Shown here in pieces: positions 31,360 to 62,990 of a stretch of DNA of 64,000 bases (positions within the stretch are counted from its first letter, which is position 1; every line of letters begins with the position of its first letter). The notes below the pieces were generated by a model. It did no database searches. It was not told the DNA's origin and saw only the letters and a list, made by a program, of their open reading frames with translations. Position numbers and translations under genes: made by a program. The stretch spans positions 8,207-72,206 of IMG/VR virus record IMGVR_UViG_3300028800_000066, one strand, 5' to 3'. This DNA comes from a virus (Duplodnaviria; Heunggongvirae; Uroviricota; Caudoviricetes).

Positions 31360-31387
31360 AAGAGGGTATTACCTTTCTTTCACTTCG

Positions 31388-31461
31388 AGCAAGCGGTGGG
31401 ATTCGAACCCACGAATAACGGTTTTGCAGACCGTCCCCTTAGACCACTTGGGTACGCTTGC
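31388..31461 (-). tRNA. tRNA-Cys (GCA)
   Basis: Cloverleaf with GGTTCGAATCC T-arm (read from rc). Anticodon loop CTGCAAA. Confidence 0.8.
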
Positions 31462-39875: not shown

Positions 39876-39889
39876 ATTGAAAATTTCTG

Positions 39890-39969
39890 AGCTATCTGAG
39901 AGAATCGAACTCTCGCTGGTTTCCCGCCCGATTACAAATCGGGTGCCATTCCACTCGGCTCAAGATAGC
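39890..39969 (-). tRNA. type-II (long variable arm) tRNA with anticodon loop TTTGTAA (TGT by canonical numbering), identity uncertain
   Basis: gctatct|tg|agcc..ggca|cccga-TTTGTAA-tcggg|cgggaaaccagc|gagag-ttcgatt-ctctc|agatagc|t. Confidence 0.5.
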
Positions 39970-41470: not shown

Positions 41471-42325
41471 TTATTCAAGATGTTCAACTACACTTCTCAA
41501 GATTTTAGCGGTGGTCTGTCTCAAAGTTCTGTGATGTTTAACCACGCCATAACCATGATACTCTTTATTCATTTCAATCAAAAGCTTGTGAGCGGCTTCC
41601 CTATCTGGACCATGAGGAAGTTGAGTCTTTGTATAAAGTTCATCACAAAGAGCTTCGAGCCTTTTTGCTTCTTCTAGAAAACGTTCCTTGCTCCATTCAC
41701 CCTTTTTGACGGTTAGAACAAGCTGGTTTTCTTTTAGAGGAAGCGTGATTTTGCCAGTTGACAAAAGCTCATTAGCCTCAAGATACAATCTAAGAGCGTG
41801 AGAAGCCATCTTAGTATCATATCCAAACTTCTGAATCAATTCTTGTCTTCCACTTCCATTATCTTCGCCACGCTGTAGTCTCTGGACCTGAGTGTGGCTA
41901 TAACCTTTAAAGCTGTGATAGCTTTTCTTGGACAAGAAGATTTCTTTGTTATCAAAAAGCTTCTGCCCTAGAGGATGTACGTATAACCTGCAATTCTCCG
42001 GAACAAATAATGTTTCTAAAGTATTCGGATTGTTATTTAGAAGCAATTCCATAAACTTTGGAAGTGCATACAATGTGCAATCCATATCAGCGGAAGTATT
42101 CTTCTTTCCAGAACCCGTATCGTTGGTTCTGAATTCTACCTGTTCGATGTTCTTCAATCCCAAAAGATACTCTTCGTCAGGCATGAATACACCAACAAAG
42201 TCCTGGTCGCTCTTGCCTGGGATATTGGTTCCATACATGACCGACCCAACACGTAGGAATAGCAAGCAGTTTTCGACTGCCATCTTCCTCTCGACTGTGT
42301 TTTGTAGAAGTTCTGTATGTTTCAT
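41471..42325 (-). CDS. Pol-beta superfamily nucleotidyltransferase
   Basis: GSVMYGTNIPGKSDQDFVGVF (GS...[DE]xD nucleotidyltransferase signature). Driven by consensus promoter P1. Confidence 0.55.
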   Translation of the reverse strand: MKHTELLQNTVERKMAVENCLLFLRVGSVMYGTNIPGKSDQDFVGVFMPDEEYLLGLKNIEQVEFRTNDTGSGKKNTSADMDCTLYALPKFMELLLNNNPNTLETLFVPENCRLYVHPLGQKLFDNKEIFLSKKSYHSFKGYSHTQVQRLQRGEDNGSGRQELIQKFGYDTKMASHALRLYLEANELLSTGKITLPLKENQLVLTVKKGEWSKERFLEEAKRLEALCDELYTKTQLPHGPDREAAHKLLIEMNKEYHGYGVVKHHRTLRQTTAKILRSVVEHLE

Positions 42326-44687: not shown

Positions 44688-44700
44688 GATTACCTCTCGG

Positions 44701-44788
44701 TAGTCGTGTAGGGAATCGAACCCTAGTTAGGCTGTCATCTACAGCTAGGAGTTTATAAGGCTCCCTCGGTGCCACACCTCGCACGACC
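44701..44788 (-). tRNA. 88-nt type-II tRNA with anticodon loop CTTATAA (TAT, Ile AUA, by canonical fold), identity uncertain
   Basis: Good acceptor and T arms. 22-nt variable arm with gctgt/acagc stem. AC stem has a C-A mismatch. A73. Confidence 0.5.
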
Positions 44789-44792
44789 ATGA

Positions 44793-45869
44793 TTACTGTT
44801 CTCGTTCTCTTTGTCTTTCAATGAAATTAAAAATATCTGTATTCTCTCTAAACGCTGGATTACTTCCTATCATCTCACGAAATTCCTGTTCACTTCCCAT
44901 GAACGTATATTCACATTCCATATCTTCCGACATTTCAAAGTTATGCATATTGTATAGCATTTTACTGTATTCTAATCCACCATCATCCCAACGACCCTCT
45001 CTATCCCAACCTCCCCTAGGTATGATTGAGACACAAATAAATTCATCAAAGTCTTCTCTATATTGTTCCTCATTGTCTCTGGCTCTTGCCCAATAATATC
45101 TGTGTTCTGGAGTATAACCTTCTGAAGCTATACTTGTTCCATATAATTCGGCAAGATATCTTGTAAAGCCACCACTTGAATCAAATAAAGGATGAGCGTT
45201 GAGAAGTCTTTCAGCTTCTTCTCTTGAAGCTGTTGTATAAAATTCGTGGTCCCCATCTTGTGCAAAACCAAGTTCTTGCAAAGCATTTCTTAGTGTTTGC
45301 CCAATTTCTGCATATGTTCTATAATTCATGTCATTAGTATAGCGCGTATCTATATAACCAGTTGTTTCAAATACGTTCTTCTCAGCAAATGCAAAATAAG
45401 ATACATTTGTACCATCATTCAAACGTTCTTGCGAAGCGTTTTCATCATACGTAAACAAATATCTAGCCGTAGCCTTTGAAGACCTTAGAGCGGCATTGGC
45501 TGTAGCTACTTTGCTATGAACTATAACCGCTTTTTCCCAATCAGGATATTTTGCTTTCAAGTCTTCCACTTCTTTACAAACACCAGTGGAATGTAATTCT
45601 TTAATCTTTTCAGCTAACTCTTTACCGATTCCCTTTATGGAAGTCAGTTTATCGTTCTTCAAAAACTCTTCCAAAGAAACCGTAAGAACAATTTCAGCGG
45701 CAGTTTTAACAGCCTTGATTCTGAAATGGTTAGACTTATCTAGTTTCAATAGCTTAGCAAAATCTAAAAAGGTTGCATGAGCTAGGGTGCTTAGACCAGT
45801 GCTAACTTCGTCTAAGGCGATATCATTTAATCTGCCACGTTGAACTGGAACTTTTTCTACTTTAGCCAT
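44793..45869 (-). CDS. hypothetical protein with N-terminal helix-hairpin-helix
   Basis: LTSIKGIGKELAEKI HhH motif. Rest unknown. Confidence 0.5.
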   Translation of the reverse strand: MAKVEKVPVQRGRLNDIALDEVSTGLSTLAHATFLDFAKLLKLDKSNHFRIKAVKTAAEIVLTVSLEEFLKNDKLTSIKGIGKELAEKIKELHSTGVCKEVEDLKAKYPDWEKAVIVHSKVATANAALRSSKATARYLFTYDENASQERLNDGTNVSYFAFAEKNVFETTGYIDTRYTNDMNYRTYAEIGQTLRNALQELGFAQDGDHEFYTTASREEAERLLNAHPLFDSSGGFTRYLAELYGTSIASEGYTPEHRYYWARARDNEEQYREDFDEFICVSIIPRGGWDREGRWDDGGLEYSKMLYNMHNFEMSEDMECEYTFMGSEQEFREMIGSNPAFRENTDIFNFIERQREREQ

Positions 45870-46554: not shown

Positions 46555-46642
46555 TGACCAAGGAGAGATTCGAACTCTCACGCCCATTACAGGCAACGGT
46601 ATCTAAAGCCGTCATGTCTACCTATTTTTTCATCACTCGGCC
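46555..46642 (-). tRNA. type-II tRNA, probable Leu (TAG) with oversized D-loop
   Basis: Acceptor ggccgag/cttggtc (2 G-U). AC stem acggc/accgt with loop TTTAGAT. Variable arm tgcctgtaatgggcgt. Fold less certain than the others. Confidence 0.45.
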
Positions 46643-47562: not shown

Positions 47563-47595
47563 AAATTTGTCAAGCCCTTTTATCGTTTCATAATG

Positions 47596-47669
47596 TGAAC
47601 CAGATGGGACTCGAACCCATATAACTCCCTTACGTTATCCCGCTTCGGAGGCGAGAACGGTACTGGTCC
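47596..47669 (-). pseudogene. tRNA-like element (74 nt) without a D-arm; possible tRNA pseudogene or tRNA mimic
   Basis: Good acceptor ggaccag/ctggttc and T-arm atggg-ttcgagt-cccat. The internal region folds as ctcgc-CTCCGAA-gcggg (anticodon-like CCG) enclosed by cgtt/aacg, so there is no room for a D-arm. Confidence 0.35.
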
Positions 47670-47670
47670 A

Positions 47671-47826
47671 TCACTTTTTCTTTCTAGCTTCTTTCAATCT
47701 CTTTTTTCTATCTTCGATTGCTTCTTGTAATTTCTTAGCGAATTCATCATTTCTTGGTCTGTTTCTGGATTCTGGTCTTACATTGATTTCACTTGGAATT
47801 GGTTTAATTGGCTCAATTTTATCCAT
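47671..47826 (-). CDS. small Lys/Arg-rich ORF (51 aa)
   Basis: MDKIEPIKPIPSEINVRPESRNRPRNDEFAKKLQEAIEDRKKRLKEARKKK. Immediately downstream of the kinase gene. Confidence 0.35.
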   Translation of the reverse strand: MDKIEPIKPIPSEINVRPESRNRPRNDEFAKKLQEAIEDRKKRLKEARKKK

Positions 47827-48420
47827 TTAATTAGTACCAGTCCTTAAATTATTTAGCCACTCTTGTAGCTTTTTATCAATCACTTCTTCATCGCCATCAT
47901 TAACTAGGACAAGATTGCAACGACTAATCTCTTCATGAGTTATAAAAACGGAATCAACCTGGGCTTCTGCAACTTCTCTTGATATATTTCTTCCATGAAT
48001 CAGTCTTTCTAACCTAACTTCTCTAGGTGCAGTCACTAGAAGGATGTTATCAAACAACTTCTCAGCACCAGATTCGAACAATACAGGTATATCAAAGAAT
48101 AACATTTTATTTTCGACTGCCTTATGTCGTTCAATTACTTTTCTGATTTCATCCAAAATTCCAGGGAACATCAGGTCGTTAAGTTTCTTCAATTCCGTTC
48201 TGTTATTAAAAACTAAGATAGCTAACTTTTTCGTATCAAGACCGCCATCTTCTTTAAGATATTCTTTCCCAAACAAGTCAATAATTCTGGAAACAAACTT
48301 ATGTCGAATATTTCTAGCCAAATCATCTACATCATAAACACAATAACCATTTTGTCTTAAGCTTTGTGATATTTTAGATTTTCCAGAACCACTAGGTCCA
48401 GTAATCCCGATGACTTTCAT
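47827..48420 (-). CDS. coaE: P-loop kinase, dephospho-CoA kinase (CoaE)-like
   Basis: MKVIGITGPSGSGKS Walker A. DVD and LN..HP motifs align with CoaE. Could equally be a polynucleotide or nucleotide kinase of the same fold. Confidence 0.6.
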   Translation of the reverse strand: MKVIGITGPSGSGKSKISQSLRQNGYCVYDVDDLARNIRHKFVSRIIDLFGKEYLKEDGGLDTKKLAILVFNNRTELKKLNDLMFPGILDEIRKVIERHKAVENKMLFFDIPVLFESGAEKLFDNILLVTAPREVRLERLIHGRNISREVAEAQVDSVFITHEEISRCNLVLVNDGDEEVIDKKLQEWLNNLRTGTN

Positions 48421-48939: not shown

Positions 48940-49015
48940 TGGGACTGAGAGGACTCGAACCTCCAACTGCTCGACTTCGTAGGTCGGCTCTCTATTCCAA
49001 TTGAGTTACAGTCCC
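48940..49015 (-). tRNA. tRNA-Arg (ACG), second copy
   Basis: Loop CTACGAA. Different body. Confidence 0.7.
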
Positions 49016-49209
49016 ATTTTGTGAAACAATGCAAAAAGTACTGGTACGATTACAAATGTTGCTAAAGCTTTAAGTCCAGGCAGGAATACGAAGAAGAATC
49101 CACCAATCAGCAAAGTAGGAAAAGTATAGATAAACATTTCCAAGAGATGTTTCTTAAATGTTTTCTTTTCCTGTGCCGGAATTACGACTTCTGGTTTCTT
49201 CTTAGGCAT
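49006..49209 (-). CDS. small membrane protein
   Basis: Two TM helices. Confidence 0.35.
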   Translation of the reverse strand: MPKKKPEVVIPAQEKKTFKKHLLEMFIYTFPTLLIGGFFFVFLPGLKALATFVIVPVLFALFHKMGL

Positions 49210-49444
49210 TCATTACCTCAAGTCTGTGAAACCCTTCGTTCTTTAAGGCGTCAATAAACAAATCTGACGGTTTATCAGTTGATTTCCAAGTAATCCAGGG
49301 TGCTTCATCGGAATCAATATCTTTATATCTCATCGTCCAATCTTCTTTTTCTTTTACACTTGGAAACGGCATATAAGTACCCTTCGGAGCATATTCAGGG
49401 AAACAAATCCAACAAGGATTTCCAACACATCCATGCGCGGCCAT
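49202..49444 (-). CDS. hypothetical Cys-containing small protein
   Basis: ORF. Confidence 0.4.
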   Translation of the reverse strand: MAAHGCVGNPCWICFPEYAPKGTYMPFPSVKEKEDWTMRYKDIDSDEAPWITWKSTDKPSDLFIDALKNEGFHRLEVMNA

Positions 49445-49783
49445 TTATTCTCCCTGTGATTCCTTTAAATCTTGAGCCATATCTTGCAAAGCTTTAATGT
49501 TTCTCTGCAATCTATTCAACATTTCTTTTTCTGCCCAAGCTTTGGCTTCCACCAACTTTATCTTACAATATTCTTCTGTCTTAAACTTAAAGACTCTTGA
49601 AATTTTTTTTCCACGTTGCTTATCTTCAATCCAAGCTTCAATTCGATTATCATCATAACGAGGAATTCCAACGTGTGCGACAAGCATATCATCAAACAAT
49701 CTGTAGATGAAATACCCTTCCTTGGGTCGCCATGCCCCGTAATTTCCAGAACAATCTCGCCATCTAAGATGGTAACTCGCCAT
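49445..49783 (-). CDS. hypothetical protein
   Basis: ORF. Confidence 0.45.
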   Translation of the reverse strand: MASYHLRWRDCSGNYGAWRPKEGYFIYRLFDDMLVAHVGIPRYDDNRIEAWIEDKQRGKKISRVFKFKTEEYCKIKLVEAKAWAEKEMLNRLQRNIKALQDMAQDLKESQGE

Positions 49784-50136
49784 TATACTCCCTCGGGGAT
49801 TACAAATCCAGTCGTAGCATGAACAGTCTTGGGTTGATTGGCTTCAAGCATATCATTGACCAATTTCTCTTCTGCCGCTCTGGCCTTGACTTCTTTTCCA
49901 GTCTCACGCCAAATCTCCGTGATTGACTGACCTTCTTTGTTGTAATTCCAGCCCTTCTCGCTGACTTCCATACCAGCCTTTTTCATACCCTCTTCGGCCA
50001 GAATCACGGGAACGAACAACGCCGCTCCAAGAGCGAATTTCATAGTCTCCTTGATATTCATCGTATCCTCTGAGTTATTTGTGTCTCTTAACAAGTTTTT
50101 GGAGCTTTGCATTTGCCAGGAGTTTCCTGGCTTCAT
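49783..50136 (-). CDS. hypothetical protein
   Basis: ORF. Confidence 0.45.
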   Translation of the reverse strand: MKPGNSWQMQSSKNLLRDTNNSEDTMNIKETMKFALGAALFVPVILAEEGMKKAGMEVSEKGWNYNKEGQSITEIWRETGKEVKARAAEEKLVNDMLEANQPKTVHATTGFVIPEGV

Positions 50137-50169
50137 TTAACTTGGATTTTTTTTCTTTTACTTTTTTCA

Positions 50170-50556
50170 TTACCAATCCAATGTTCCAGCATTAACACAG
50201 GCTACACCAAAAACAGCGCCAACAGCTACATCCAATAACTCTGCCTTGAAATGAGTTTTGTCGTTTTTATGTAAAGCTTCCATCATTTCACGATGTTCTT
50301 CATCTACTACACCAGCGATTTCGTGAGTTGAAGCAAATGTTCCATAACCTTTTTGTTTAAGTCTACGATTAAGTTCTAATCTGAATTCCATAACAGCTTG
50401 TTCAATTTGTTCTTGCGTAATTTCCAGTCTAGCATTAGCCATTTGTTCTCCACGCGCAGGAACTTCCATGTCCGAATCCAGTCCCGCCATAAGGGCATCA
50501 ATTTCGCTCTGACTTAATATATCGTCCACTCTATGCTCTGAGAAGATTTCGCTCAA
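50170..50556 (-). CDS. MazG-like all-alpha NTP pyrophosphohydrolase (putative)
   Basis: ASTHEIAGVVDEEHREMMEAL...ELLDVAVGAVF acidic helix pattern. Confidence 0.45.
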   Translation of the reverse strand: MSEIFSEHRVDDILSQSEIDALMAGLDSDMEVPARGEQMANARLEITQEQIEQAVMEFRLELNRRLKQKGYGTFASTHEIAGVVDEEHREMMEALHKNDKTHFKAELLDVAVGAVFGVACVNAGTLDW

Positions 50557-51550
50557 CGGCTTGACCGTGCATCCAATGTTTCACGGTCTGGATGTGATTC
50601 TTTCTCACATATTTAGCCGCAGACTTTCTAAAATCACCGTATGAAAACTTGTCAGCAATTCTGATTACATATCCTTCTTTGCTCTGCCAATTTTCTTTGT
50701 TGTACAAAGCTTTAATTTTTGTCTCATCATAGATTCCATCATACAAAACTGGAACGCTTTGGATGTTCAAAAGATTAAACCAAGAAGCCGTATCATCCCA
50801 ATCCAGGCATTCGTTCTTTTCATTCCAAACCGAGAATCCCATGAAATAGGTGGGGAGATTATCGTAGCCAATTGAGTGTTTGGCCCAAAGATTCTCACCG
50901 CAGACTCTCCAACCTTCGGGGATATCGTTAGCGATTGCCGCCCAAAAGTTCTTTACCCAATTTCTAGAAACATGAGTGTCACTGTTTATACTTCTTGCAT
51001 GGATGTGGTCACGATACATTGTCGTGTTTTCTCCATCCATTTTTTCTGTAACAATAACTCTTTTACCTTCAAAACTTTTCATGTTCTCAATCATGCGGTC
51101 ATCATCGTTCATGTTTTCCGACCAAGGAACATGGTATGTTCTAGGATATTTTACATAACTGGTAAACTGTCCGAGAACATCAGCTAAAATCTTTTGGACG
51201 CTCAAATCGTAAAACAACTCACCTTTAAGTCTTTGACCATTGGGAAGAATAATGTTTCCCCATTTATCGTAAGTCTGGTCGTGATAGAAATGTTCTGGAA
51301 GAACTGGTTTAGTAATTCCGCACTTCTCACGAACTTGTTCCACAGAAATATTGGTCTTTTCACATTCAATGTGATGTTCTTCGCAAACCGAAGCGCCATT
51401 GTTTAGAAAATAACCGCCATTTCCCCAAATCCTACGTTCAATTATATGGTGTGCATCTGCCGCTGGTTCTCCACAAAATACGCACTTATGACCATCTCTT
51501 TTGAAGACGCCCTCACGGAATTCATCACGAGTGAGCAATTTGGATTCCAT
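50531..51550 (-). CDS. HNH nuclease fused to ATP-dependent RNA ligase-like nucleotidyltransferase
   Basis: N-terminal CVFCGEPAADAHHII...CEEHH. Ligase motif I TEKMDGEN (KxDGxN), motif IV EGYVIR, motif V AAKYVRK. Confidence 0.55.
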   Translation of the reverse strand: MESKLLTRDEFREGVFKRDGHKCVFCGEPAADAHHIIERRIWGNGGYFLNNGASVCEEHHIECEKTNISVEQVREKCGITKPVLPEHFYHDQTYDKWGNIILPNGQRLKGELFYDLSVQKILADVLGQFTSYVKYPRTYHVPWSENMNDDDRMIENMKSFEGKRVIVTEKMDGENTTMYRDHIHARSINSDTHVSRNWVKNFWAAIANDIPEGWRVCGENLWAKHSIGYDNLPTYFMGFSVWNEKNECLDWDDTASWFNLLNIQSVPVLYDGIYDETKIKALYNKENWQSKEGYVIRIADKFSYGDFRKSAAKYVRKNHIQTVKHWMHGQAVERNLLRA

Positions 51551-51553
51551 GAT

Positions 51554-52024
51554 TTAATCCACACTATCAAGATTTGACTTAGGAGCTAATGCTATCTGTT
51601 GGGCGACAGGCTCGACCATTGTTTGTTTTCCGGCCACATTGTCTCTAACCACTCTGCTAGCACTACGCTTCTGTTGAAAATATTGAACATCTGGTACACT
51701 TTTTTCCAATATGTTCTTGAGATAAATAATCCAATAACCTTTTCTGTAAACATTATAATGAGTTTTAGAGTTAAGTTCATTATCTCTATATCTGTTATAG
51801 ACTCGAATATTTTCCGTCCCAGTCTTTACGAAGATTTCGTAATTATAATCATCGTTGTCTTTATGTTCAAAATCAACAATTATATAAGCATCTTCGTAAG
51901 TTAAATTTGTTCCTCTTGGAGATGAATTGACGTTCAAAAGATTTAAGATATCATCCTTAATGCTTTCCGGTCCTACGAGAAAGACCCTGAATTTTGTCAA
52001 CAAATTCCTAAACCAATTCAACAT
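51554..52024 (-). CDS. hypothetical protein adjacent to RNA ligase
   Basis: ORF. Confidence 0.45.
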   Translation of the reverse strand: MLNWFRNLLTKFRVFLVGPESIKDDILNLLNVNSSPRGTNLTYEDAYIIVDFEHKDNDDYNYEIFVKTGTENIRVYNRYRDNELNSKTHYNVYRKGYWIIYLKNILEKSVPDVQYFQQKRSASRVVRDNVAGKQTMVEPVAQQIALAPKSNLDSVD

Positions 52025-52026
52025 CT

Positions 52027-52308
52027 TTAATCCAGAGAATCAAGTGACTTTCTCTTGCCCCAGTTGCTACTGACAAATGTTCGATATTCTGGTGTTTCTT
52101 CTATAATTTGAAATTCTGTATGATTGATGGAGACTATTCTGGCCGAGCCGCCAATTACAGCATTTATTTCTTTTAGACTTAGCGCGTGTCCGAAACCAGC
52201 TTGGACTAATCTTGCGGCCTGAGCGTGATTGCCCGCTTCATACAATTCTCTGGCTGTATTTGTTATAAATTCGCCAGAGATTGAAAAACCCATTGTGAGT
52301 TTTTGCAC
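52027..52308 (-). CDS. hypothetical protein
   Basis: ORF. Confidence 0.4.
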   Translation of the reverse strand: MQKLTMGFSISGEFITNTARELYEAGNHAQAARLVQAGFGHALSLKEINAVIGGSARIVSINHTEFQIIEETPEYRTFVSSNWGKRKSLDSLD

Positions 52309-52321
52309 ACTTACCTCGGAT

Positions 52322-52396
52322 TGGCTCCGAAACTAGGACTCGAACCTAGAACCTCGGTGTTAACAGCACCTTGCTCCACCATTGAGCTATTTCGGA
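52322..52396 (-). tRNA. tRNA-Asn (GTT), CCA encoded
   Basis: Loop CTGTTAA. Confidence 0.8.
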
Positions 52397-52403
52397 ATGC
52401 AAC

Positions 52404-52763
52404 TTACCTAATGCGCTTACCCGTATTCTTTTCAACTCTTACTGCTCTATCATCCCACAATTCAATTAAACCGTGGTCTTTTATATTAGTCACTTCCAAT
52501 TTCTGACCAATATGTTTCTCGCACCAATCTTCAATTCTCTTTCTAATTTCAGAAATACTTTCTTCGTTTCTAGCTGGTTCGGCAACTCTAGCCGTAAAAA
52601 TCTTTACGGTTTTTCCAGAAGCCAGCCAAAGTTTAACTCGTCTCACCATAGCTGGAATTGGCTCACCAATTTCTTTTTTATAACCTTCATAGTAAGCGAG
52701 TGTCCCGTCTAAATCAACACCATACCAACCTTGTTTACGCTCTACCATTATCAAATCCCTCAT
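52404..52763 (-). CDS. HAD-family phosphatase (polynucleotide 3'-phosphatase-like)
   Basis: GVDLDGTLA (DxDGT motif I). KIFTAR (motif II region). 119 aa. Confidence 0.55.
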   Translation of the reverse strand: MRDLIMVERKQGWYGVDLDGTLAYYEGYKKEIGEPIPAMVRRVKLWLASGKTVKIFTARVAEPARNEESISEIRKRIEDWCEKHIGQKLEVTNIKDHGLIELWDDRAVRVEKNTGKRIR

Positions 52764-52935
52764 ATATACAGTCGTAATTATTTTCTATATAACTTTTAGT
52801 TACTTTAATATTGTCTAACATTGTGTCGCCGTGATAAATCATAACTTGAGCTTCATCGCCACAATCTTCAATCACAGTCAATATGCATTTTTCAAATGTT
52901 CTGCTTTTCCATTTAGCATTGAATCCGAAACGCAT
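52735..52935 (-). CDS. hypothetical small protein
   Basis: ORF overlapping the phosphatase 5' end. Confidence 0.3.
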   Translation of the reverse strand: MRFGFNAKWKSRTFEKCILTVIEDCGDEAQVMIYHGDTMLDNIKVTKSYIENNYDCIYEGFDNGRA

Positions 52936-52957
52936 TTCTATCCTTGAGTTAAATTTG

Positions 52958-53029
52958 CTGGCTCTCTAAGAATCGAACTTAGACTCATTCGGGTAACAAC
53001 CGAAGGTTTTACCATTAAACTAAGAGCCA
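52958..53029 (-). tRNA. tRNA-Asn (GTT), second copy
   Basis: Loop TTGTTAC. Confidence 0.7.
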
Positions 53030-53143
53030 ATGATGCCGACTTTCATATCTTAGACGGCAAGCCAGCATTATAACTCAGTAAGCCTACGCTCACATTGTAT
53101 CTGGTCTTTAATTTTTAAAGATTGTACTGTATTATGAAACTGT

Positions 53144-53217
53144 TGGCTCCCGACCAAGGAATCGAACCTCAATTCTGGCATTAACAGTGCCGCGTCCTAC
53201 CATTGAACGAGTCGGAA
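53144..53217 (-). tRNA. tRNA-Asn (GTT), third copy, CCA encoded
   Basis: Loop CTGTTAA. Body differs from copies 1 and 2. Confidence 0.65.
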
Positions 53218-53244
53218 ATGCTTACTACTTCTACATTACAACTG

Positions 53245-53273
53245 ATTATATCACATTTCGCTCTATTTGTCAA
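53245..53273 (-). promoter_or_regulatory. consensus sigma70 promoter P3 (TTGACA-17-TGaTATAAT) for Asn tRNA array
   Basis: rc: ggcTTGACAaatagagcgaaatgTGaTATAATcag. Confidence 0.75.
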
Positions 53274-53281
53274 GCCAAAAG

Positions 53282-53318
53282 AAAACCCCTCCGAACTTTT
53301 TTTAAGGTCCGGAGGGGT
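53282..53318 (-). terminator. rho-independent terminator abutting promoter P3
   Basis: CCCCUCCG-GACCUUAAAAAAAGUU-CGGAGGGG followed by UUUUCUUUUGG. The U-tail overlaps the -35 of P3. Confidence 0.7.
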
Positions 53319-53492
53319 TAATTTAGTGGTTGATGATTGCAGTTTAAACCATTAAACTAGACCCTCTTAGACAATAGATTTCTATTACCCAACCAGAGGT
53401 TAGATATTGTTCGTCCATTGGTTAAAGAGGTTAAAGTCTTCATGATTAAACCTTCCGTCTATTTGTGTAGACAAAGTAGTGCATCTACTTCA
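53319..53492 (-). ncRNA. candidate about 200-nt small transcript between ext -10 promoter and terminator (sRNA or 32-aa micro-ORF)
   Basis: Bounded by the TGaTATAAT element (53498-53506) and the terminator 53282-53318. Contains hairpins GUAG-AUGCA-CUAC and AGGUUUAA...UUUAACCU. Also a possible 32-aa ORF with GGAAGG RBS. Confidence 0.35.
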
Positions 53493-53497
53493 TTACT

Positions 53498-53526
53498 ATT
53501 ATATCAAAAATTATAAAATTTTACCA
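53498..53526 (-). promoter_or_regulatory. candidate extended -10 promoter (TGaTATAAT)
   Basis: rc: TGGTAA-17-TGaTATAAT downstream of ORF 53544..53927. Weak -35. Confidence 0.4.
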
Positions 53527-53543
53527 CTTTTTAATACAAATTT

Positions 53544-53927
53544 TTATTCAAAATCTGACAATGGCATATTGAATTTTGACGAGCAAAAGCTGTTTGCGGC
53601 CTGGACTGAATTATTATATTCCAACAGTAAATCAGGTGGTTGAATGTCTTTTAATTCAGAAACAACGCGCTTATAAATATCTGAAGCTAGTCTATCTCTT
53701 TCCGCAAGTATTCCGCGTAACATTGTAGCTTCGCCACGAAGATTATCGAACTCTGGATAATATTTTTCTTTAACAATTCTCAAATTATCAGAGTGTTCAT
53801 CTTCCAATTTTTTCCTAGCATCTACATAAACTTCGATAATTTTCTCTTTTTCCTGTTCATAAAGCTTGTCAGCTTCCTTTTGTTTCTTATCTAATTCCTG
53901 AAGCTTTTTAGAAGTCGGAAACATCAT
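53544..53927 (-). CDS. hypothetical coiled-coil protein
   Basis: ORF. Confidence 0.45.
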   Translation of the reverse strand: MMFPTSKKLQELDKKQKEADKLYEQEKEKIIEVYVDARKKLEDEHSDNLRIVKEKYYPEFDNLRGEATMLRGILAERDRLASDIYKRVVSELKDIQPPDLLLEYNNSVQAANSFCSSKFNMPLSDFE

Positions 53928-54017
53928 TTTTTATCCTAAGAAAAGAAAACAACCTATTCAAGTTTTCAGTTGTTTGAGTGGCACTGCGAAGCTTACGTCT
54001 TGAACCACTGACTTATA

Positions 54018-55721
54018 TTAACCCTTGATGAAGTCACTCATCACGGCTGGGGCAGATGAATCGAATCCTACCACGTCTAACATTCCAGCATCGTTAGGGT
54101 CTGCAATCGTGAAATCATTCGTAACCATACCAACCACAACTGACTTGGCATTGTTACTAGACTGCTTGCGATATTCTGCAAGAGCCTGATGTGGGTGAAT
54201 TCTTCCAGCATAAGTCTCGTTATCGGTGTAGACAAAGAAAGCATCTACATCTAACTTATTCTGCTTTGCATAAACCATCGGCAAAGAGCAATCAGTTCCA
54301 CGGAAAGGAAGATTATTGATGACTGAGATTACATCATCCAATCTCTTCTTTCCAGAAATGTTCAAGTCAATGAACTCTGTCGAGAATCCCTTGATATAGA
54401 CGTTCTTCTCAACCTTTGCAGTAACCATTGCCATAGCCGCGCTTACCACTCTTGGCGTAAGACCTGGAATACCAGAAATTGAACCGCCGTCCATTGAACC
54501 AGACACGTCCAAGGCCAACATGATGTTCTTTCCAGTTGGCTCAACATTATCAAATGCTGTGTAGAAAGCAGAATCCAATGCGTCCACAACTGTCTGGACC
54601 GGAGTCCAGGAATTTCCACCACGCTCACCGTGACCCTGCTGATAAACCTTCAAGGCCGACAATAACTGAATCGGATGCACTCTCGCCTTCTTCAAAGCCT
54701 CTACATTAGCAAGCTTTTCAGCGACAAGCTTTGAACCCTGTGAAAGCGGTGCAATCAATCCAACTCTTGTCATTGTTGCAATATTACGAATCATTGCAGT
54801 CAATGGCATGTGCGGAAGTAATGCATCCCACACTTCAATGGTGTTAAGTAACTCTGTAGGAACAGCTTCACGAGGAAGTTCGTGTTCTCTAATCAATCCA
54901 ACAATTTCAGAAGCAGTCGTTGCCCTCTGAGCCTGTTCGAAAGCATTAATCATCGGGTGGATATTGACGATAAGCTTTCCTTCATTGTCATAGTGCGACT
55001 TTACCCATGACTGAATCTGCTCGTGCTTCTCGGAATACTTCACCTTTGCCGAATCGTTCTTGGCAGAGACAGGGGCATCCTTACCAGCCTTATACTTATT
55101 CCACGCAACCCACTGATAGATATCATTACGTGCGGCATCAGCGGTCTTCAAGTGAGCAAGACGCAACGCATCACGATGTTCAAAACCTTCACGATTACGA
55201 TACTTAATAACCTGTAATGCAAGGCCATCCAAGTTCTTCTCGTTATACCAACGCTGAACTGCCTTACGCAATCCAGTACCAGTTCCCTTGCCAATGGTGT
55301 CCGCAATCGACAAGAACTGGAACAAATGTGTGGCGATTCTGCATACCTTTGAAAGGTTCTGATATGCATACGCACGAGTAGCCGCATCACCATGCTTTAC
55401 GACAAGCGCAAGAGCAAACACAGCGGGGTCATTCTTTGGAGCGCGACCATTGTGAGAAATTTCCACAATAGTATCAACAGTCTTGCGACCATTTTCCTTC
55501 ACGCACTCCAAGATGCACTTCGCACTGTCCTGTGTCATCTTGTGCTCGGATGCATAATACGAGCCACCCTCGTTTCCAAGAATCAAGAAACGGTTTAAAC
55601 GGGTCCAGTTGTCTACCTTGAATGTAAAGCCACCCGCGCTGTTTGGAACCTGATTGCTTCCGAATACCTTCTCGGACTGGGGTGTAACCTTAGTTGAAAC
55701 GTGCGAAGCATAGTTTGACAT
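54018..55721 (-). CDS. vWA-domain protein with Ro60/TROVE-like architecture (Rsr-like, inferred)
   Basis: C-terminal vWA MIDAS LALDVSGSMDG...T...D. About 400-aa helical N-terminal module. 567 aa matches the Ro60 size and domain order. GGAAGAGGAG RBS. Own consensus promoter. Confidence 0.5.
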   Translation of the reverse strand: MSNYASHVSTKVTPQSEKVFGSNQVPNSAGGFTFKVDNWTRLNRFLILGNEGGSYYASEHKMTQDSAKCILECVKENGRKTVDTIVEISHNGRAPKNDPAVFALALVVKHGDAATRAYAYQNLSKVCRIATHLFQFLSIADTIGKGTGTGLRKAVQRWYNEKNLDGLALQVIKYRNREGFEHRDALRLAHLKTADAARNDIYQWVAWNKYKAGKDAPVSAKNDSAKVKYSEKHEQIQSWVKSHYDNEGKLIVNIHPMINAFEQAQRATTASEIVGLIREHELPREAVPTELLNTIEVWDALLPHMPLTAMIRNIATMTRVGLIAPLSQGSKLVAEKLANVEALKKARVHPIQLLSALKVYQQGHGERGGNSWTPVQTVVDALDSAFYTAFDNVEPTGKNIMLALDVSGSMDGGSISGIPGLTPRVVSAAMAMVTAKVEKNVYIKGFSTEFIDLNISGKKRLDDVISVINNLPFRGTDCSLPMVYAKQNKLDVDAFFVYTDNETYAGRIHPHQALAEYRKQSSNNAKSVVVGMVTNDFTIADPNDAGMLDVVGFDSSAPAVMSDFIKG

Positions 55722-55788
55722 GGTGTTCTCCTCTTCCCTTTACGGGGGTTATAAGATTAATGCAAGTCGTCCCACAACGACTAAGAGC

Positions 55789-55817
55789 ATTATATCCTTT
55801 TTAATCTAATTTATCAA
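55789..55817 (-). promoter_or_regulatory. sigma70 promoter P6 (TTGATA-17-TATAAT) for the Ro60-like gene
   Basis: rc: TTGATAaattagattaaaaaggaTATAAT. A 5'-UTR hairpin GUCGU-UGUGGG-ACGAC follows. Confidence 0.65.
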
Positions 55818-56502
55818 GAACTTTTTGCGATTTGTTTTCAATTACTGGTTCTGTTAATTCATTTGATTTTACATCATTTTTAATTTCTGTAACGGGGTCT
55901 CCAATTGGTTCTGGAACAGTTGGAGTTTGCGTCACGATACTTATTCCAGATACGCTTGTACTAGCACTATCTCTTCTGATTCTTGCTAAAAACTCTTGAT
56001 ATGTTTCTGACAGTGATTCTGATGGTCTTACAGCAGAAACTACTGGACCAGGAGGCGGCGGTGGAGGTGTAGGTTCTGGAACTCTTAGCAACCTATTTAA
56101 TCTTTCTCGCGCTCTCTCTTCGTCCCTAGTTAAAACATTTCTAGCTTCTCTAACTTTTTGCTGATATTCTCTAATAACTTCTTGATATCTAGTTTCTAAT
56201 TGATTCAACAATTCGGTATCAGTAAGTCTTCTATATCTGATTTTGAATGTGTCATTAGAAATCTCATCGCTATTGCGGCTAGAATCTGTATAATCAAGAA
56301 TATCACCACCATACGTTCTTCCAGGTATATGGTCTGAAATATTCTGAATTTGTTCTACCGTTCTAACTCTAGGTCCGTCATAATTAACAGGATTTTTTAC
56401 TACTCTACAATATTCGAAACGATTATTTACATTATAAAACCAACGACCAATCTTTGGCTTATTACTATTTCTAGTTAAGAAGTTCCACAATCCCATATTC
56501 AA
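55801..56502 (-). CDS. hypothetical protein with poly-Pro segment
   Basis: EPTPPPPPPGPV. Confidence 0.5.
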   Translation of the reverse strand: MNMGLWNFLTRNSNKPKIGRWFYNVNNRFEYCRVVKNPVNYDGPRVRTVEQIQNISDHIPGRTYGGDILDYTDSSRNSDEISNDTFKIRYRRLTDTELLNQLETRYQEVIREYQQKVREARNVLTRDEERARERLNRLLRVPEPTPPPPPPGPVVSAVRPSESLSETYQEFLARIRRDSASTSVSGISIVTQTPTVPEPIGDPVTEIKNDVKSNELTEPVIENKSQKVLDKLD

Positions 56503-56519
56503 ACCTGAGAATTATTTTG

Positions 56520-56591
56520 TCGGGATAGCTGGATTTGAACCAGCGGCCCCCTGCTCCCAAAGCAGGTGCGCTACCCCTGCGCCATATCCCG
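56520..56591 (-). tRNA. tRNA-Pro (TGG)
   Basis: Loop TTTGGGA. Confidence 0.8.
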
Positions 56592-56610
56592 ATAGGTAAT
56601 TTAATTTTTG

Positions 56611-56683
56611 TGGAGCAGAGGGGAGTCGAACCCCTGACCCCTTACATGCCATGCAAGTGCTCTGCCAACTGAGCTACTGCCCC
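56611..56683 (-). tRNA. tRNA-Ala (GGC)
   Basis: Loop ATGGCAT. G3:U70 wobble in the acceptor stem (Ala identity element). Confidence 0.8.
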
Positions 56684-56845
56684 ATTATATCTACTGATAT
56701 TTCGTAAACCTTCCAAACATCTTTGCCATGTTGCTTATTTAAATCTTCACATTTATTTTTAGCTTCATCTATATCAAAAAACATTTTATCATCGTATGAC
56801 TTTGTTAACTTTGGTTTGTTGGCAACTATCCAAGCCTGAAACACA

Positions 56846-57043
56846 TTAGCCTCTATTGTTTATATAATCTTTAAATGCTTGTATGCCTAAAATGACAATA
56901 ACCAACATTACAGAACCACTAATCGTGAGTAGAAACCAATTCCCAAGACTTAAAAATAACAAAACTTTAGGTAATGATACAATATATAAAATCATTCCAA
57001 GAGCTACAAAAAATCCAATCAATCGAACAATATCATTTTTCAT
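56846..57043 (-). CDS. small membrane protein
   Basis: Two TM helices. Confidence 0.4.
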   Translation of the reverse strand: MKNDIVRLIGFFVALGMILYIVSLPKVLLFLSLGNWFLLTISGSVMLVIVILGIQAFKDYINNRG

Positions 57044-57182
57044 AAATCATCCGAGATGAATTCCGTTTTTTTATCCATAAAATCATGGAAGGGGCAAAAT
57101 TACGTCTAAACCCACTTTTAAGGAATAAGCTGACCAGTCATTTAAAGTTTAAAGCGGAACTGAACGACTAAAATAAACGCTG

Positions 57183-57255
57183 TGGAGCTTCGGGGATTCG
57201 AACCCCGCACATCTACCTTGCAAAGGTAGCACTCTACCAAATGAGTTAAAGCCCC
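57183..57255 (-). tRNA. tRNA-Ala (TGC)
   Basis: Loop TTTGCAA. G3:U70 present. Confidence 0.8.
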
Positions 57256-57256
57256 A

Positions 57257-57760
57257 TTATTTCTTTGAATCGTTTTCTCTTATCTGTTCAATCGTAAAAC
57301 CATTGTTTATATAAACAACAAAATCAATCTTATATGTATCTGAAACTCTATTCAAAATACCTTCAACAACATTCCAATTTCCTCCAGCTAATCCGCATCC
57401 AATCAATGGAAGAGCAAGAGTCTTTAGGCTCTTTGAAAGCATATCAAGACAAACACCTGACAGGCTTTTTTCTAAAGCTCCGTAATCTAAATCCATTCTT
57501 CCAACATTTCTTCCCCTATAATCAAACTGGGAATAAATATTGTATCCAAATTTTCCATCAGGCAATTGCAAGTAAGTATAAGCGCCCAATTTCTGCTGTG
57601 GAGTAAATGGACTTTTACAATCCGCAATTTCATACATCGCAGGCCATTTAGCTCTTACCGCTTTCGCAACACCACTACCCATTGTAGATTGGCAATTACA
57701 CCCGTGACCGAATGCATCTTCTGTGAAAGCAAGTAAATCACCAGTCTTATAAGTAATCAT
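57257..57760 (-). CDS. macro-domain protein (ADP-ribose binding/hydrolase-like)
   Basis: GDLLAFTEDAFGHGCNCQSTMGSGVAKAV and later IGCGLAGG resemble MacroD-type motifs (GD..x..DA..N..x..G.GV.. / G.G..G). Confidence 0.55.
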   Translation of the reverse strand: MITYKTGDLLAFTEDAFGHGCNCQSTMGSGVAKAVRAKWPAMYEIADCKSPFTPQQKLGAYTYLQLPDGKFGYNIYSQFDYRGRNVGRMDLDYGALEKSLSGVCLDMLSKSLKTLALPLIGCGLAGGNWNVVEGILNRVSDTYKIDFVVYINNGFTIEQIRENDSKK

Positions 57761-62354: not shown

Positions 62355-62990
62355 TTACGCTTTTTCCTCGAACTTTGTGTAAATATCCTGTAATTCCCTA
62401 GACATTTGTGTATAATGTTTACCGATTAAACCTTTCTTTCTTAACCATTTCAAATCGTTTGAAAGATAGGCATTCATTTCATCAATCAATTGTTTCTTGG
62501 AATAACCCTTCTTTATCAAGAAGGCGCTTAATTCTTTAACGTCTTTATCTTTAAAATAATTCTTAATTACTTTTCTATATTCAGGAACCATTGAAAAAGA
62601 AGCGTGTGTTACTTCATGATTGATTGTTTCTTTTTCAGTTCTATCTCTCATGAATGTTCCGATAATGTAAAATTCTCCCTTTACATTACGAAACAAATCC
62701 AAGAACTGTTGTTCTTTATTGCTAAGAGGATTGAACTTTCCTTCATAGAATGGTTTTAAATCTTTTGAAGGAACATTATATCCAGTCCAATCTTCATAGT
62801 ACGTGAATCTCTTTTTGTTTTGAGTCTTCATATACCATTTCTTAAATTGCGCTAACGTAAAAACTTTACCTGAAAATTCTGGTGATTCAAAATATTCTTC
62901 GAACCTCAACAAAGTGGAAGTCAAATCGTATCTTGTCTCAAATCTGACATGATACACGTAAGAGTTGATTTTGGTGAGTTCAATTTTCAT
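62355..62990 (-). CDS. hypothetical protein (partner of small RNA-ligase-like gene)
   Basis: ORF translationally coupled to the upstream ligase-like gene. Confidence 0.5.
   Translation of the reverse strand: MKIELTKINSYVYHVRFETRYDLTSTLLRFEEYFESPEFSGKVFTLAQFKKWYMKTQNKKRFTYYEDWTGYNVPSKDLKPFYEGKFNPLSNKEQQFLDLFRNVKGEFYIIGTFMRDRTEKETINHEVTHASFSMVPEYRKVIKNYFKDKDVKELSAFLIKKGYSKKQLIDEMNAYLSNDLKWLRKKGLIGKHYTQMSRELQDIYTKFEEKA

What the first reader, a model, noticed from the sequence alone, without database searches (positions are those of the whole stretch)
50170..55721. Gene cluster that reads like a heal-and-seal tRNA/RNA repair system, embedded in the tRNA island
Within 5.5 kb on one strand sit an HNH-nuclease/RNA-ligase fusion (KxDGxN, EGYVIR, KYVRK motifs), a 119-aa HAD phosphatase with a DxDGT motif (same chemistry as the 3'-phosphatase of T4 Pnkp), a MazG-like NTP pyrophosphatase, three tRNA-Asn genes, and a Ro60-architecture vWA protein. 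Elsewhere in the island are a CoaE-like P-loop kinase (47827), a Pol-beta nucleotidyltransferase (41471), a second small KxDG ligase-like gene (62987) and a macro domain (57257). Phage heal-and-seal systems (T4 Pnkp plus Rnl1) counter host anticodon nucleases. This set is larger than that and would plausibly defend the phage's own about 40 tRNAs. An HNH domain fused to an RNA ligase is not an arrangement I know of.
Basis: partly seen in the sequence, partly recalled or inferred. Interest (0 to 1): 0.85.

Follow-up and report, generated by a model that had tools for sequence, protein, structure and literature searches.

The report
Jumbo-phage RNA-repair genes in tRNA island
An uncultivated large phage carries, among its 41 tRNA genes, a set of predicted RNA-repair genes of a kind already described for jumbo phages; the one new item is a conserved structured RNA motif right after its Ro60 gene.

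Summary
50531-51550 encodes an HNH nuclease fused to an Rnl2/Rnl5-like RNA ligase. 52404-52748 is a minimal HAD phosphatase whose closest solved fold is the T4 Pnkp 3'-phosphatase, by a small margin. 50170-50490 is MazG-like, 54018-55721 is Ro60, and three tRNA-Asn genes lie between them. RlaP, a second Rnl2-like ligase, a macro domain and a CoaE kinase are elsewhere in the island.

- This toolkit, including the HNH-Rnl2 fusion, was already described by comparative genomics of jumbo phages (PMC7824862). The fusion is PHROG 24030 and has over 6,600 homologues, so it is not a new arrangement.
- It is not a T4-type heal-and-seal set. There is no recognisable polynucleotide 5'-kinase, because the only P-loop kinase is a bona fide CoaE relative. 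Neither ligase is Rnl1-type.
- MazG and CoaE have no demonstrated link to RNA repair.
- The gene order is conserved only in a narrow phage clade.

New here: a roughly 75-nt two-hairpin RNA motif ("Element A", 53941-54013) follows the Ro60 stop codon in 7 of 8 clade loci, with compensatory changes in 10 of 13 pairs. It is not a canonical Y RNA. All functions are inferred from homology.

Verdict: a new member of a known kind, of moderate to low interest.

The parts
50531..51550 (-). HNH nuclease (about residues 8-65) fused to an Rnl2/Rnl5-like ATP-dependent RNA ligase nucleotidyltransferase domain (about residues 130-339). There is no C-terminal domain after the ligase core.
50170..50490 (-). 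MazG-like all-alpha NTP pyrophosphohydrolase, 106 aa from the ATG. An upstream TTG at 50556 would overlap the ligase gene.
   Evidence: Pfam MazG E 0.012 for this protein. 40 of 47 homologues match PF03819 (best 1e-6). The profile hits PDB MazG-related 2p06 at 3e-5. E64, E65, E68 and E84 are invariant and D87 nearly so.
51554..52308 (-). Two conserved ORFs of unknown function (156 aa at 51554-52024; 93 aa at 52027-52308), packed directly upstream of the ligase.
   Evidence: No Pfam or PHROG hit. Homologues lie in the same position in L010, and the 156-aa ORF also has homologues in L099-L101.
52404..52748 (-). Minimal cap-less HAD phosphatase (114 aa) and candidate RNA 3'-phosphatase.
52322..53217 (-). 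Three tRNA-Asn(GTT) genes (52322-52396, 52957-53029, 53144-53217), interleaved with a 66-aa ORF (52735-52935) and the HAD gene. A consensus promoter lies at 53245-53273.
   Evidence: ARAGORN and Rfam. TTGACA-17-TATAAT, 12 of 12, with an extended -10 TG. The simple scan finds no - strand terminator between 53245 and the end of the MazG-like gene.
53941..54013 (-). Element A: a conserved two-hairpin RNA motif starting 5 nt after the Ro60 stop codon. It is a candidate Ro60-associated RNA or 3'-UTR element.
   Evidence: Covariance model R1 finds it immediately downstream of Ro60 in 7 of 8 clade loci, including three not used to build the model. 10 of 13 pairs show compensatory changes and 98% of cells pair. 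RNAalifold predicts the same two helices. It is the only hit in the 64-kb window.
54018..55721 (-). Ro60/Rsr orthologue (TROVE ring plus vWA domain). A promoter-like site lies at 55789-55817.
   Evidence: Pfam TROVE 2.5e-43 and vWA_Ro60 1.6e-60. NCBIfam Rsr 1e-155. Promoter-like site matching 11 of 12.
55801..56502 (-). 233-aa proline-rich ORF of unknown function, conserved directly upstream of Ro60.
   Evidence: Homologues upstream of Ro60 in L010 (35% identity, E 8e-17), L012 and L099. No family hit.
57257..57760 (-). Macro domain protein.
   Evidence: Pfam Macro 3.9e-5, 24 bits against a cut-off of 22. NCBIfam DarG antitoxin macro region, 1.6e-10. A macro gene lies upstream of Ro60 in L010, L101 and L102.
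41471..42325 (-). RlaP-family Pol-beta nucleotidyltransferase.
   Evidence: PF10127, 1.3e-19, 71 bits against a cut-off of 23. The family adds 1-2 NMPs to damaged RNA 3'-OH ends in vitro (PMC12776372).
62987..63610 (-). Second, minimal Rnl2-like RNA ligase (207 aa). Its end overlaps the start of a 211-aa HExxH-containing ORF (62355-62990).
   Evidence: phrog_548 RNA ligase 2e-14. Pfam RNA_ligase 3e-5, over the full length but below the cut-off. Motifs KLDGSN, EGVVCK and FKIKS.
47827..48420 (-). CoaE-family P-loop kinase. It is the only Walker-A kinase in the window, and there is no evidence that it acts on RNA.
   Evidence: Pfam CoaE 9e-38. PDB dephospho-CoA kinases, 2e-22. Walker-A scan. Conserved at the same relative position in L010, L099 and L101.

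Best explanation
The window is part of an uncultivated jumbo-type phage. It carries a terminase, several sigma factors, 41 tRNAs and a tmRNA. Its tRNA island holds a dispersed RNA end-repair and RNA quality-control toolkit of the kind already catalogued for jumbo phages.

Proposed working, all inferred from homology:
1. Host or competitor RNases cut tRNAs or other structured RNAs.
2. The small Pnkp-like HAD removes 3'-phosphate or 2',3'-cyclic phosphate.
3. RlaP adds back one or two lost 3' nucleotides.
4. The two Rnl2-like ligases seal 3'-OH/5'-phosphate nicks held in a duplex such as the anticodon stem-loop.
5. Ro60, perhaps loaded on Element A at the 3' end of its own transcript, binds misfolded or broken RNA ends. 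It would act as a scaffold or recruit a host exonuclease.
6. The macro domain removes ADP-ribose adducts or ADP-ribose-1''-phosphate.

The HNH domain keeps its catalytic residues. It most likely cuts nucleic acid to leave 5'-phosphate and 3'-OH ends.

The 5'-kinase step has no identified enzyme in this window. It must lie elsewhere in the genome, be supplied by the host, or be bypassed.

HAD, tRNA-Asn, two small ORFs, the HNH-ligase and the MazG-like gene are packed on one strand behind a consensus promoter, so they are probably co-transcribed.
For: - Domain identities.
- Ligase fold closest to Rnl2, Rnl5, Rnl3 and REL1, not to DNA ligases or capping enzymes. All nucleotidyltransferase motifs and all HNH catalytic and zinc ligands are invariant in 43 homologues.
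- RlaP activity on damaged RNA and tRNA is published.
- Published comparative genomics describes the same components in jumbo phages: Rnl2 with N-terminal HNH, RlaP, TROVE, standalone HAD and macro.
- Within the clade, HAD and HNH-ligase stay linked. In the window they are 0.85 kb apart. In L100 the order is HAD-R2K-ligase with 3- and 7-nt gaps. L010 has the same order.
- There is a consensus promoter at 53245-53273, and the scan finds no - strand terminator before the end of the MazG-like gene.
- Element A is tied to Ro60 in 7 of 8 clade loci and shows strong covariation.
Against: - No activity has been tested for any component.
- No polynucleotide kinase is recognisable; the only P-loop kinase is CoaE-like.
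- Rnl2-type ligases have no established tRNA-repair role, even in T4 (established knowledge).
- HAD homologues in other phages have unrelated neighbours. HNH-ligase homologues in other jumbo phages also lack conserved neighbours.
- In L099, L101 and L102 no ligase lies near Ro60.
- MazG and CoaE fit nucleotide or cofactor metabolism better.
- Element A lacks the canonical Ro60-binding helix and a tRNA-like module.
Confidence: 0.55

Rival explanations
1. This is a mosaic of unrelated accessory genes that share only the tRNA-island location.
- MazG-like, HAD and CoaE serve nucleotide or cofactor metabolism.
- The macro domain reverses ADP-ribosylation by DarT-like defences.
- Ro60 with its RNA hijacks host PNPase for RNA decay, as proposed for Thermus phage phiLo.
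- The HNH domain attacks foreign or host DNA, or is a homing-type module.
- The ligases have other roles.
For: - The neighbourhoods of the HAD and of the HNH-ligase differ outside the clade.
- The cluster composition varies between clade members.
- The macro domain's best named hit is DarG.
- MazG-like proteins are interpreted as nucleotide-pool enzymes in jumbo phages.
- phiLo Ro60 forms a complex with Y-like RNA and host PNPase.
- CoaE is a typical dephospho-CoA kinase relative.
- PMC7824862 itself suggests the HNH targets DNA.
Against: - RlaP, two RNA ligases, a Pnkp-like HAD and Ro60 together in one 34-kb island match the published RNA-repair pattern.
- HAD and ligase are tightly packed in L100 and linked in the window and L010.
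- The HNH and ligase cores are both under strong conservation as a single protein.
Confidence: 0.3
2. Kinase-independent 'trim, refill, seal' repair.
1. The HNH domain clips the damaged termini (2',3'-cyclic phosphate and 5'-OH). This leaves 3'-OH and 5'-phosphate ends directly.
2. RlaP refills the lost nucleotides.
3. The fused ligase seals the break.
No polynucleotide kinase would then be needed.
For: - HNH (beta-beta-alpha-metal) nucleases leave 5'-phosphate and 3'-OH ends, which is what ATP-dependent ligases require (established enzymology).
- The catalytic HNH residues are invariant in the fusion.
- The model shows one compact protein, pTM 0.82.
- No PNK is found in the window.
- RlaP adds 1-2 nucleotides to damaged RNA and is needed after 'excessive damage'.
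Against: - This is purely inferential; no HNH of this family is known to cut RNA.
- Ligase-only homologues exist in related jumbo phages, including XacN1, Atu_ph07 and Phosso.
- The window covers only part of the genome, so a PNK may lie elsewhere.
- A separate Pnkp-like HAD would be redundant under this scheme.
Confidence: 0.1
3. The two PF09414 proteins are DNA nick-sealing or DNA-end enzymes that work with the HNH DNA nuclease, for example in recombination, homing or repair of modified DNA. They would not be RNA ligases.
For: - The HNH domain resembles DNA-cutting HNH modules such as IscB, McrA and the GVE2 HNH.
Against: - Pfam RNA_ligase is at 113 bits, and the PHROG matches are RNA-ligase families.
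- No OB domain of the DNA-ligase or capping type follows the core, since the protein ends 24 residues after the Pfam domain.
Confidence: 0.05

Closest known systems
Jumbo-phage RNA-repair complement described by Iyer, Anantharaman, Krishnan, Burroughs and Aravind 2021 (PMC7824862), building on Burroughs and Aravind 2016
   Same: The component list is the same: many tRNAs, Rnl2-family ligases (some with an N-terminal HNH), RlaP, a ROT/TROVE protein, a standalone HAD phosphatase and macro domains. The HNH-ligase is 60-64% identical to proteins of RsoM2USA, SCTP-2 and CcrBL9.
   Different: This phage is not in the isolate collection at DNA level. No PNK, 2H, cRec, RtcB or Rnl1 was seen in the window. 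The Ro60 gene carries a clade-specific 3' RNA motif that I did not find in the papers I read.
T4 heal-and-seal (Pnkp plus Rnl1 against PrrC)
   Same: A DxDxT HAD whose fold is closest to the Pnkp phosphatase domain. An ATP-dependent ligase with KxDGxN. A phage setting with its own tRNAs.
   Different: The HAD is a standalone domain with no fused kinase. No polynucleotide kinase was found. The ligases are Rnl2/Rnl5-like, not Rnl1. RlaP, Ro60, HNH and macro components are present in addition.
Bacterial rsr-yrlBA-rtcBA type Ro60/Y RNA systems, and the Thermus phage phiLo Ro60-Yrl-PNPase complex
   Same: A Ro60 orthologue with TROVE and vWA domains. A structured RNA is encoded next to it on the same strand.
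   Different: There is no RtcB or RtcA. Rfam YrlA does not match, although it does detect the mycobacteriophage ET08 control. Element A lacks the GGUNCGA/UUGACC bulged helix and the tRNA-like module. It lies in the 3' UTR rather than being a separate upstream gene.
Bacterial Pnkp/Hen1 and Pnkp1-Rnl-Hen1 RNA repair complexes
   Different: No Hen1 methyltransferase and no kinase domain. The proteins are separate and much smaller.

Membership tests
T4-type heal-and-seal (Pnkp + Rnl1) | P-loop polynucleotide 5'-kinase | tested here: not met
   The only Walker-A kinase in the 64 kb is 47827-48420. It is a clear CoaE-family member (Pfam 9e-38; PDB CoaE 2e-22). The rest of the genome was not available.
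T4-type heal-and-seal (Pnkp + Rnl1) | DxDxT HAD 3'-phosphatase / 2',3'-cyclic phosphodiesterase | tested here: inconclusive
T4-type heal-and-seal (Pnkp + Rnl1) | Rnl1-type ligase specific for broken tRNA anticodon loops | tested here: not met
Rnl2-like ATP-dependent RNA ligases (Pfam PF09414) | Profile match above the curated cut-off | tested here: met
   50531-51550 scores 113 bits against a cut-off of 27. 62987-63610 scores only 24.6 bits against 27, but phrog_548 gives 2e-14.
Rnl2-like ATP-dependent RNA ligases (Pfam PF09414) | Nucleotidyltransferase motifs I, III, IV and V, including the lysine nucleophile | tested here: met
   K170-x-D-G-x-N, E219, E292-G-Y and K313 are invariant in 43 homologues. 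Ligase 2 has KLDGSN, FFEYYG, EGVVCK and FKIKS.
Rnl2-like ATP-dependent RNA ligases (Pfam PF09414) | C-terminal nick-sensing domain as in T4 Rnl2 | tested here: not met
HNH-Rnl2 fusion family (phrog_24030) | Full-length match to the fusion profile, with HNH catalytic and zinc ligands retained | tested here: met
   phrog_24030 at 2.4e-141 over residues 4-335. C23, C26, H34, H35, N51, C56 and H60 are invariant.
Ro60/Rsr | TROVE HEAT-repeat ring plus vWA domain | tested here: met
   Both Pfam domains are far above their cut-offs. NCBIfam Rsr is at 1e-155, below its equivalog cut-off.
Y RNA / YrlA (for Element A) | Encoded next to Ro60 on the same strand | tested here: met
   It starts 2-10 nt after the Ro60 stop in six loci and about 100 nt after it in L100. 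That makes 7 of 8 clade loci.
Y RNA / YrlA (for Element A) | Match to the Rfam YrlA or Y_RNA models, and a tRNA-like module | tested here: not met
   No hit at E up to 10 in 49000-57300. The same search does detect YrlA beside the mycobacteriophage ET08 Ro60.
Y RNA / YrlA (for Element A) | Bulged helix GGUNCGA / UUGACC (CGAA motif) that binds Ro60 | tested here: not met
   Only the GGU/ACC top of the stem and a YC(A/G)A segment are present. The 3' side reads CAC, not UUG. A regex search finds no canonical site outside tRNA T-arms. A canonical pair of such stems does exist beside a more distant phage Ro60, in L017.
Y RNA / YrlA (for Element A) | Physical binding to Ro60 | not testable with these tools
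   This needs EMSA or RIP-seq.
RlaP (PF10127) | Profile match above the cut-off | tested here: met
   71.4 bits against a cut-off of 23.
MazG all-alpha NTP pyrophosphohydrolases | Profile match and the EExxE...ExxD metal-binding motif | tested here: met
   The window protein alone is below the cut-off (16 bits against 22). 40 of 47 homologues match, the profile hits PDB MazG-related proteins, and the motif residues are invariant or nearly so.

The most novel reading that the evidence does not exclude
Element A would be a new, minimal class of Ro60 partner RNA. It is a roughly 75-nt two-hairpin module carried in the 3' UTR of the Ro60 mRNA itself. It has a non-canonical internal loop (GGU-YCRA / CAC-RCC) and an invariant 15-nt loop (YNRAAG..GGAUAG). 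It would either load Ro60 co-transcriptionally or tether it to a second factor. In the same reading, the HNH-ligase fusion would perform kinase-independent trim-and-seal RNA repair together with RlaP.
Probability: 0.15. Interest if true: 0.65.

Novelty: new member of a known kind. Interest (0 to 1): 0.38.

Why it matters
If the toolkit works as predicted, it is one more example of large phages protecting their own translation apparatus against host tRNA-cleaving defences. It also offers compact, separately encoded enzymes for biochemical testing: a 114-aa 3'-phosphatase, a 207-aa ligase and an HNH-ligase. None of these families has been characterised experimentally, as far as the searched literature shows. 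The HNH-ligase family and the small HAD family each have more than 5,000 members without functional data, so one assay would annotate many proteins. Element A gives a concrete, testable candidate for the RNA partner of jumbo-phage Ro60 proteins, for which the standard YrlA model finds nothing.

Tried and rejected
- Megablast of the 5.5 kb against the phage isolate collection: no match.
- Rfam at gathering and at E up to 10 around Ro60: only tRNAs and chance hits, and no Y RNA. Distant Ro60 loci L006, L007 and L009 gave nothing either.
- Regex for the canonical Ro60-binding helix: only tRNA T-arms.
- The structured 220-nt transcript at 53278-53500 (z -5.6) was first considered as a Y-like RNA. 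This was rejected, because it contains a conserved 28-32 aa ORF. All indels are multiples of three in five loci, and third-position changes are synonymous.
- Element A pattern scans of IMG/VR and of GTDB genomes returned only chance-level partial hits. The motif therefore appears restricted to this clade.
- Sequence and profile searches of the ligase against PDB found only the HNH part. The fold search was needed to place the ligase core.
- hhalign of the ligase 1 profile against ligase 2 was uninformative because the profile was too shallow.
- Intron-containing tRNAs as possible substrates of a cut-and-rejoin enzyme: the over-long tRNAs in the window have long variable arms, not anticodon-loop insertions.
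- Burroughs and Aravind 2016 could not be read, as it is not held. It is cited only through PMC7824862.

Full report
**Context**

The window comes from an uncultivated large phage.
- It encodes a terminase large subunit (13388-15178), several sigma-70-like factors, a Band-7/SPFH protein, a tmRNA and 41 tRNA genes, all on the - strand.
- The same sequence is on a 110-kb ENA metagenome contig and on four shorter contigs.
- Megablast against the phage isolate collection finds nothing. At protein level, however, the genes match jumbo phages.

**Observation**

*HNH-ligase (50531-51550, 339 aa).*
- Pfam RNA_ligase matches at 2e-32 over residues 164-315.
- The N-terminal CxxC..HH..N..CxxxH module aligns to the HNH domain of IscB and to HNH PHROGs.
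- In 43 homologues of 62-90% identity, all HNH zinc and catalytic ligands are invariant (C23, C26, H34, H35, N51, C56, H60). So are the ligase motifs (K170-x-DG-x-N, E219, E292-G-Y, K313).
- The AlphaFold model is confident: pLDDT 89, pTM 0.82.

*HAD phosphatase.*
- It most likely starts at 52748, giving 114 aa, as in database member P0121.
- It belongs to a family of 5,548 small proteins with no Pfam domain.
- The four HAD motifs are conserved: DLDGT, FTAR, K90, WDDR.
- The model has pLDDT 92.
- A class C acid phosphatase (8.7), a heptose bisphosphate phosphatase (7.8) and a deoxyribonucleotidase (7.5) are close behind.
- Eleven of 47 family members weakly hit Pfam HAD_PNKP. A phage polynucleotide-kinase PHROG matches at 1e-6.
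- This supports a Pnkp-like phosphatase but does not establish it.

*MazG-like ORF.*
- It is weak alone (E 0.013).
- Forty of 47 homologues hit PF03819. A family profile hits MazG-related PDB entries. The EExxE...ExxD motif is conserved.

*Other components.*
- Ro60 is unambiguous.
- RlaP (41471-42325) is well above the Pfam cut-off.
- The second ligase (62987-63610) is a minimal Rnl2-like core with motifs KLDGSN, EGVVCK and FKIKS.
- The macro domain passes the Pfam cut-off, and its best named match is the DarG antitoxin.

*The fusion is known.*
- It matches phrog_24030 ("RNA ligase") end to end at 2.4e-141.
- It has 6,625 database homologues.
- It is present in RsoM2USA, SCTP-2, CcrBL9/CcrSC, ME3 and HGTV-1.
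[quoted passage not shown] That paper also lists RlaP, TROVE, standalone HAD and macro components of jumbo-phage RNA repair.
- I found no biochemical study of the fusion in the searched library.

*The set is not a T4-type heal-and-seal system.*
- The only Walker-A kinase in 64 kb is 47827-48420. It is a typical dephospho-CoA kinase relative: Pfam 9e-38 and PDB CoaE 2e-22.
- No polynucleotide kinase is therefore recognisable in the window.
- Neither ligase is Rnl1-like.

*Linkage is local.*
- Close HNH-ligase homologues in other jumbo-phage-like contigs have unrelated neighbours. So do HAD homologues.
- Within the clade defined by Ro60 identity of 63-100%, HAD and HNH-ligase stay together in the window, in L010 and in L100. 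In L100, HAD, an R2K ATP-grasp gene and the ligase are separated by 3 and 7 nt.
- L099, L101 and L102 show no ligase near Ro60.

**Transcription**

- A perfect TTGACA-17-TATAAT promoter lies at 53245-53273.
- It precedes tRNA-Asn, tRNA-Asn, a 66-aa ORF, the HAD, tRNA-Asn, two small ORFs, the HNH-ligase and the MazG-like gene.
- The gaps between the small ORFs and the ligase are about 3 nt. The simple scan finds no - strand terminator in this stretch.
- Co-transcription is an inference from this layout.

**Ro60 and its RNA**

*Canonical Y RNAs were not found.*
- Rfam's YrlA model finds nothing in 49000-57300, even at E 10.
- The same model does detect the known YrlA beside the mycobacteriophage ET08 Ro60, which served as a control.

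*Element A.*
- Directly after the Ro60 stop codon lies a roughly 75-nt motif (53941-54013).
- Hairpin 1 has a 6-bp basal stem topped by GGU/ACC. It closes an internal loop with 5' YC(A/G)A and 3' CAC.
- Hairpin 2 has a 7-8-bp stem and a conserved 15-nt loop (YNRAAG..GGAUAG).
- I built a covariance model from five copies. It found the motif immediately downstream of Ro60 in three further loci that were not used to build it: L100 (65 bits), L099 (42 bits) and L101 (34 bits).
- There were no other hits in the 64-kb window or in about 880 kb of other loci searched.
- Across eight copies, 98% of cells pair and 10 of 13 pairs show compensatory changes. Partner-slid controls give 25-50% pairing and at most 5 such pairs.
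- RNAalifold predicts the same helices independently.
- L010 and L012 carry two tandem copies. L102, where a chaperonin gene follows Ro60 after 36 nt, has none.

*Is it a Y RNA?*
- It is Y-RNA-like in position and in having a stem that closes an internal loop with a CGAA-like segment. One L010 copy reads GGUCCGAAAG.
- It lacks the UUG strand that completes the canonical bulged helix, and it lacks a tRNA-like module.
- By contrast, a more distant phage Ro60 locus (L017) has two canonical GGU-A-CGAA/UUGACC stems flanking a tRNA-like sequence.
- I therefore do not file Element A as a Y RNA.
- My preferred reading is a Ro60-binding or autoregulatory 3'-UTR element. I give direct Ro60 binding a probability of roughly one in three.
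- A plain intrinsic terminator is unlikely, given the conserved 15-nt loop and the AU-rich stem.

**Mechanism**

Shown:
- Domain identities, conserved catalytic residues, fold neighbours, gene order and the RNA covariation.
- From the literature, RlaP adds 1-2 NMPs to damaged RNA 3' ends and helps restore aminoacylation. A phage Ro60 binds Y-like RNAs and host PNPase.

Inferred:
- The HAD heals 3' ends.
- RlaP refills lost nucleotides.
- The Rnl2-like ligases seal nicks in structured RNA.
- Ro60, with or without Element A, handles damaged or misfolded RNA.
- The macro domain removes ADP-ribose adducts.

The missing 5'-kinase is the main gap. One possibility is that the HNH domain produces ligatable 5'-P/3'-OH ends directly, in a trim-refill-seal route. 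This is attractive but untested.

**Verdict**

- This is a new member of a toolkit already predicted for jumbo phages, not a new kind of system.
- The fusion singled out as unprecedented is widespread and already noted in the literature.
- The parts worth following up are the uncharacterised biochemistry of the HNH-ligase and small HAD families, and the Ro60-linked Element A.

Noticed in passing
window 53357-53443 (- strand), within the transcript 53278-53500: A conserved small ORF of 28 aa (MKTLTSLTNGRTISNLWLGNRNLLSKRV). It has its own promoter-like site (TTGTAT..GATATAAT), a GGAAGG ribosome-binding site and a strong terminator (53277-53318). It lies between Ro60 and the tRNA-Asn genes. In five related loci all indels are multiples of three, and the WLGN(G)NLLS codons differ only at synonymous positions. 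An untranslated segment after the stop (CTGAAWTCATCAACCACT) is also conserved. The peptide is Asn-rich and sits directly upstream of the tRNA-Asn genes; whether that means anything is unknown.
   Followed up: partly
window 31497-32426 (Band_7), 31387-31461 (tRNA-Cys), 31008-31359 (tmRNA), all - strand: An SPFH/Band-7 protein (Pfam 3.7e-21) lies immediately upstream of a tRNA-Cys gene and a phage-encoded tmRNA (Rfam 116.7 bits). From memory of its abstract, Burroughs and Aravind 2016 proposed SPFH/Band-7 modules with a tRNA-like RNA as RNA-repair scaffolds. This may therefore be a further part of the same toolkit.
   Followed up: no
L012:8701-8812: In a related phage, a tRNA-Asn-like gene carries a roughly 35-nt hairpin-forming insertion inside the anticodon loop (CUG|...|UUAA). 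ARAGORN does not call it. It would need excision and ligation to become functional. No such insertion was seen in the window's own tRNAs.
   Followed up: partly
window 39889-39969, 44699-44788, 47595-47680, 46555-46642; also L010:7725-7809, L100:2988-3081, L101:7288-7378, L102:7868-7955: Several phage tRNAs that are normally class I carry long, class-II-like variable arms: Thr(UGU) 81 nt, Ile(UAU) 90 nt and Arg(CCG) 86 nt in the window, and Asn(GUU) 85-94 nt in relatives. One 88-nt tRNA-like gene (46555-46642) is found only by Rfam.
   Followed up: partly
L017:1822-2080: Downstream of a more distant phage Ro60 (46% identity) lie two canonical Y-RNA-like stems (CUCGGU-A-CGAA...UUGACCGAG and GCGGU-A-CGAA...UUGACCGC). 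They flank a tRNA-like sequence and have no annotation here.
   Followed up: no
window 62355-62990 (- strand): A 211-aa ORF with an HEVTH (HExxH, zincin-like) motif has a start codon that overlaps the stop of the second RNA ligase. It has no Pfam or PHROG match and may be a partner of that ligase.
   Followed up: no
window 44793-45869, 36304-36768, 36768-37397, 34612-35007 (- strand): Other island genes are a protein with the Pol-X 8-kDa HHH_8 domain (5e-8), a nucleoside 2-deoxyribosyltransferase-like protein (2.6e-34), a DUF3228 protein (1.6e-33) and a GNAT acetyltransferase.
   Followed up: no
L010:8452-9264 and L100:4287-5081: In two related phages an R2K-clade ATP-grasp gene (Pfam R2K_3/R2K_2) sits between the HAD and the HNH-ligase. 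In L100 it is separated from the HAD gene by 3 nt and from the ligase gene by 7 nt. It is absent from the window.
   Followed up: no
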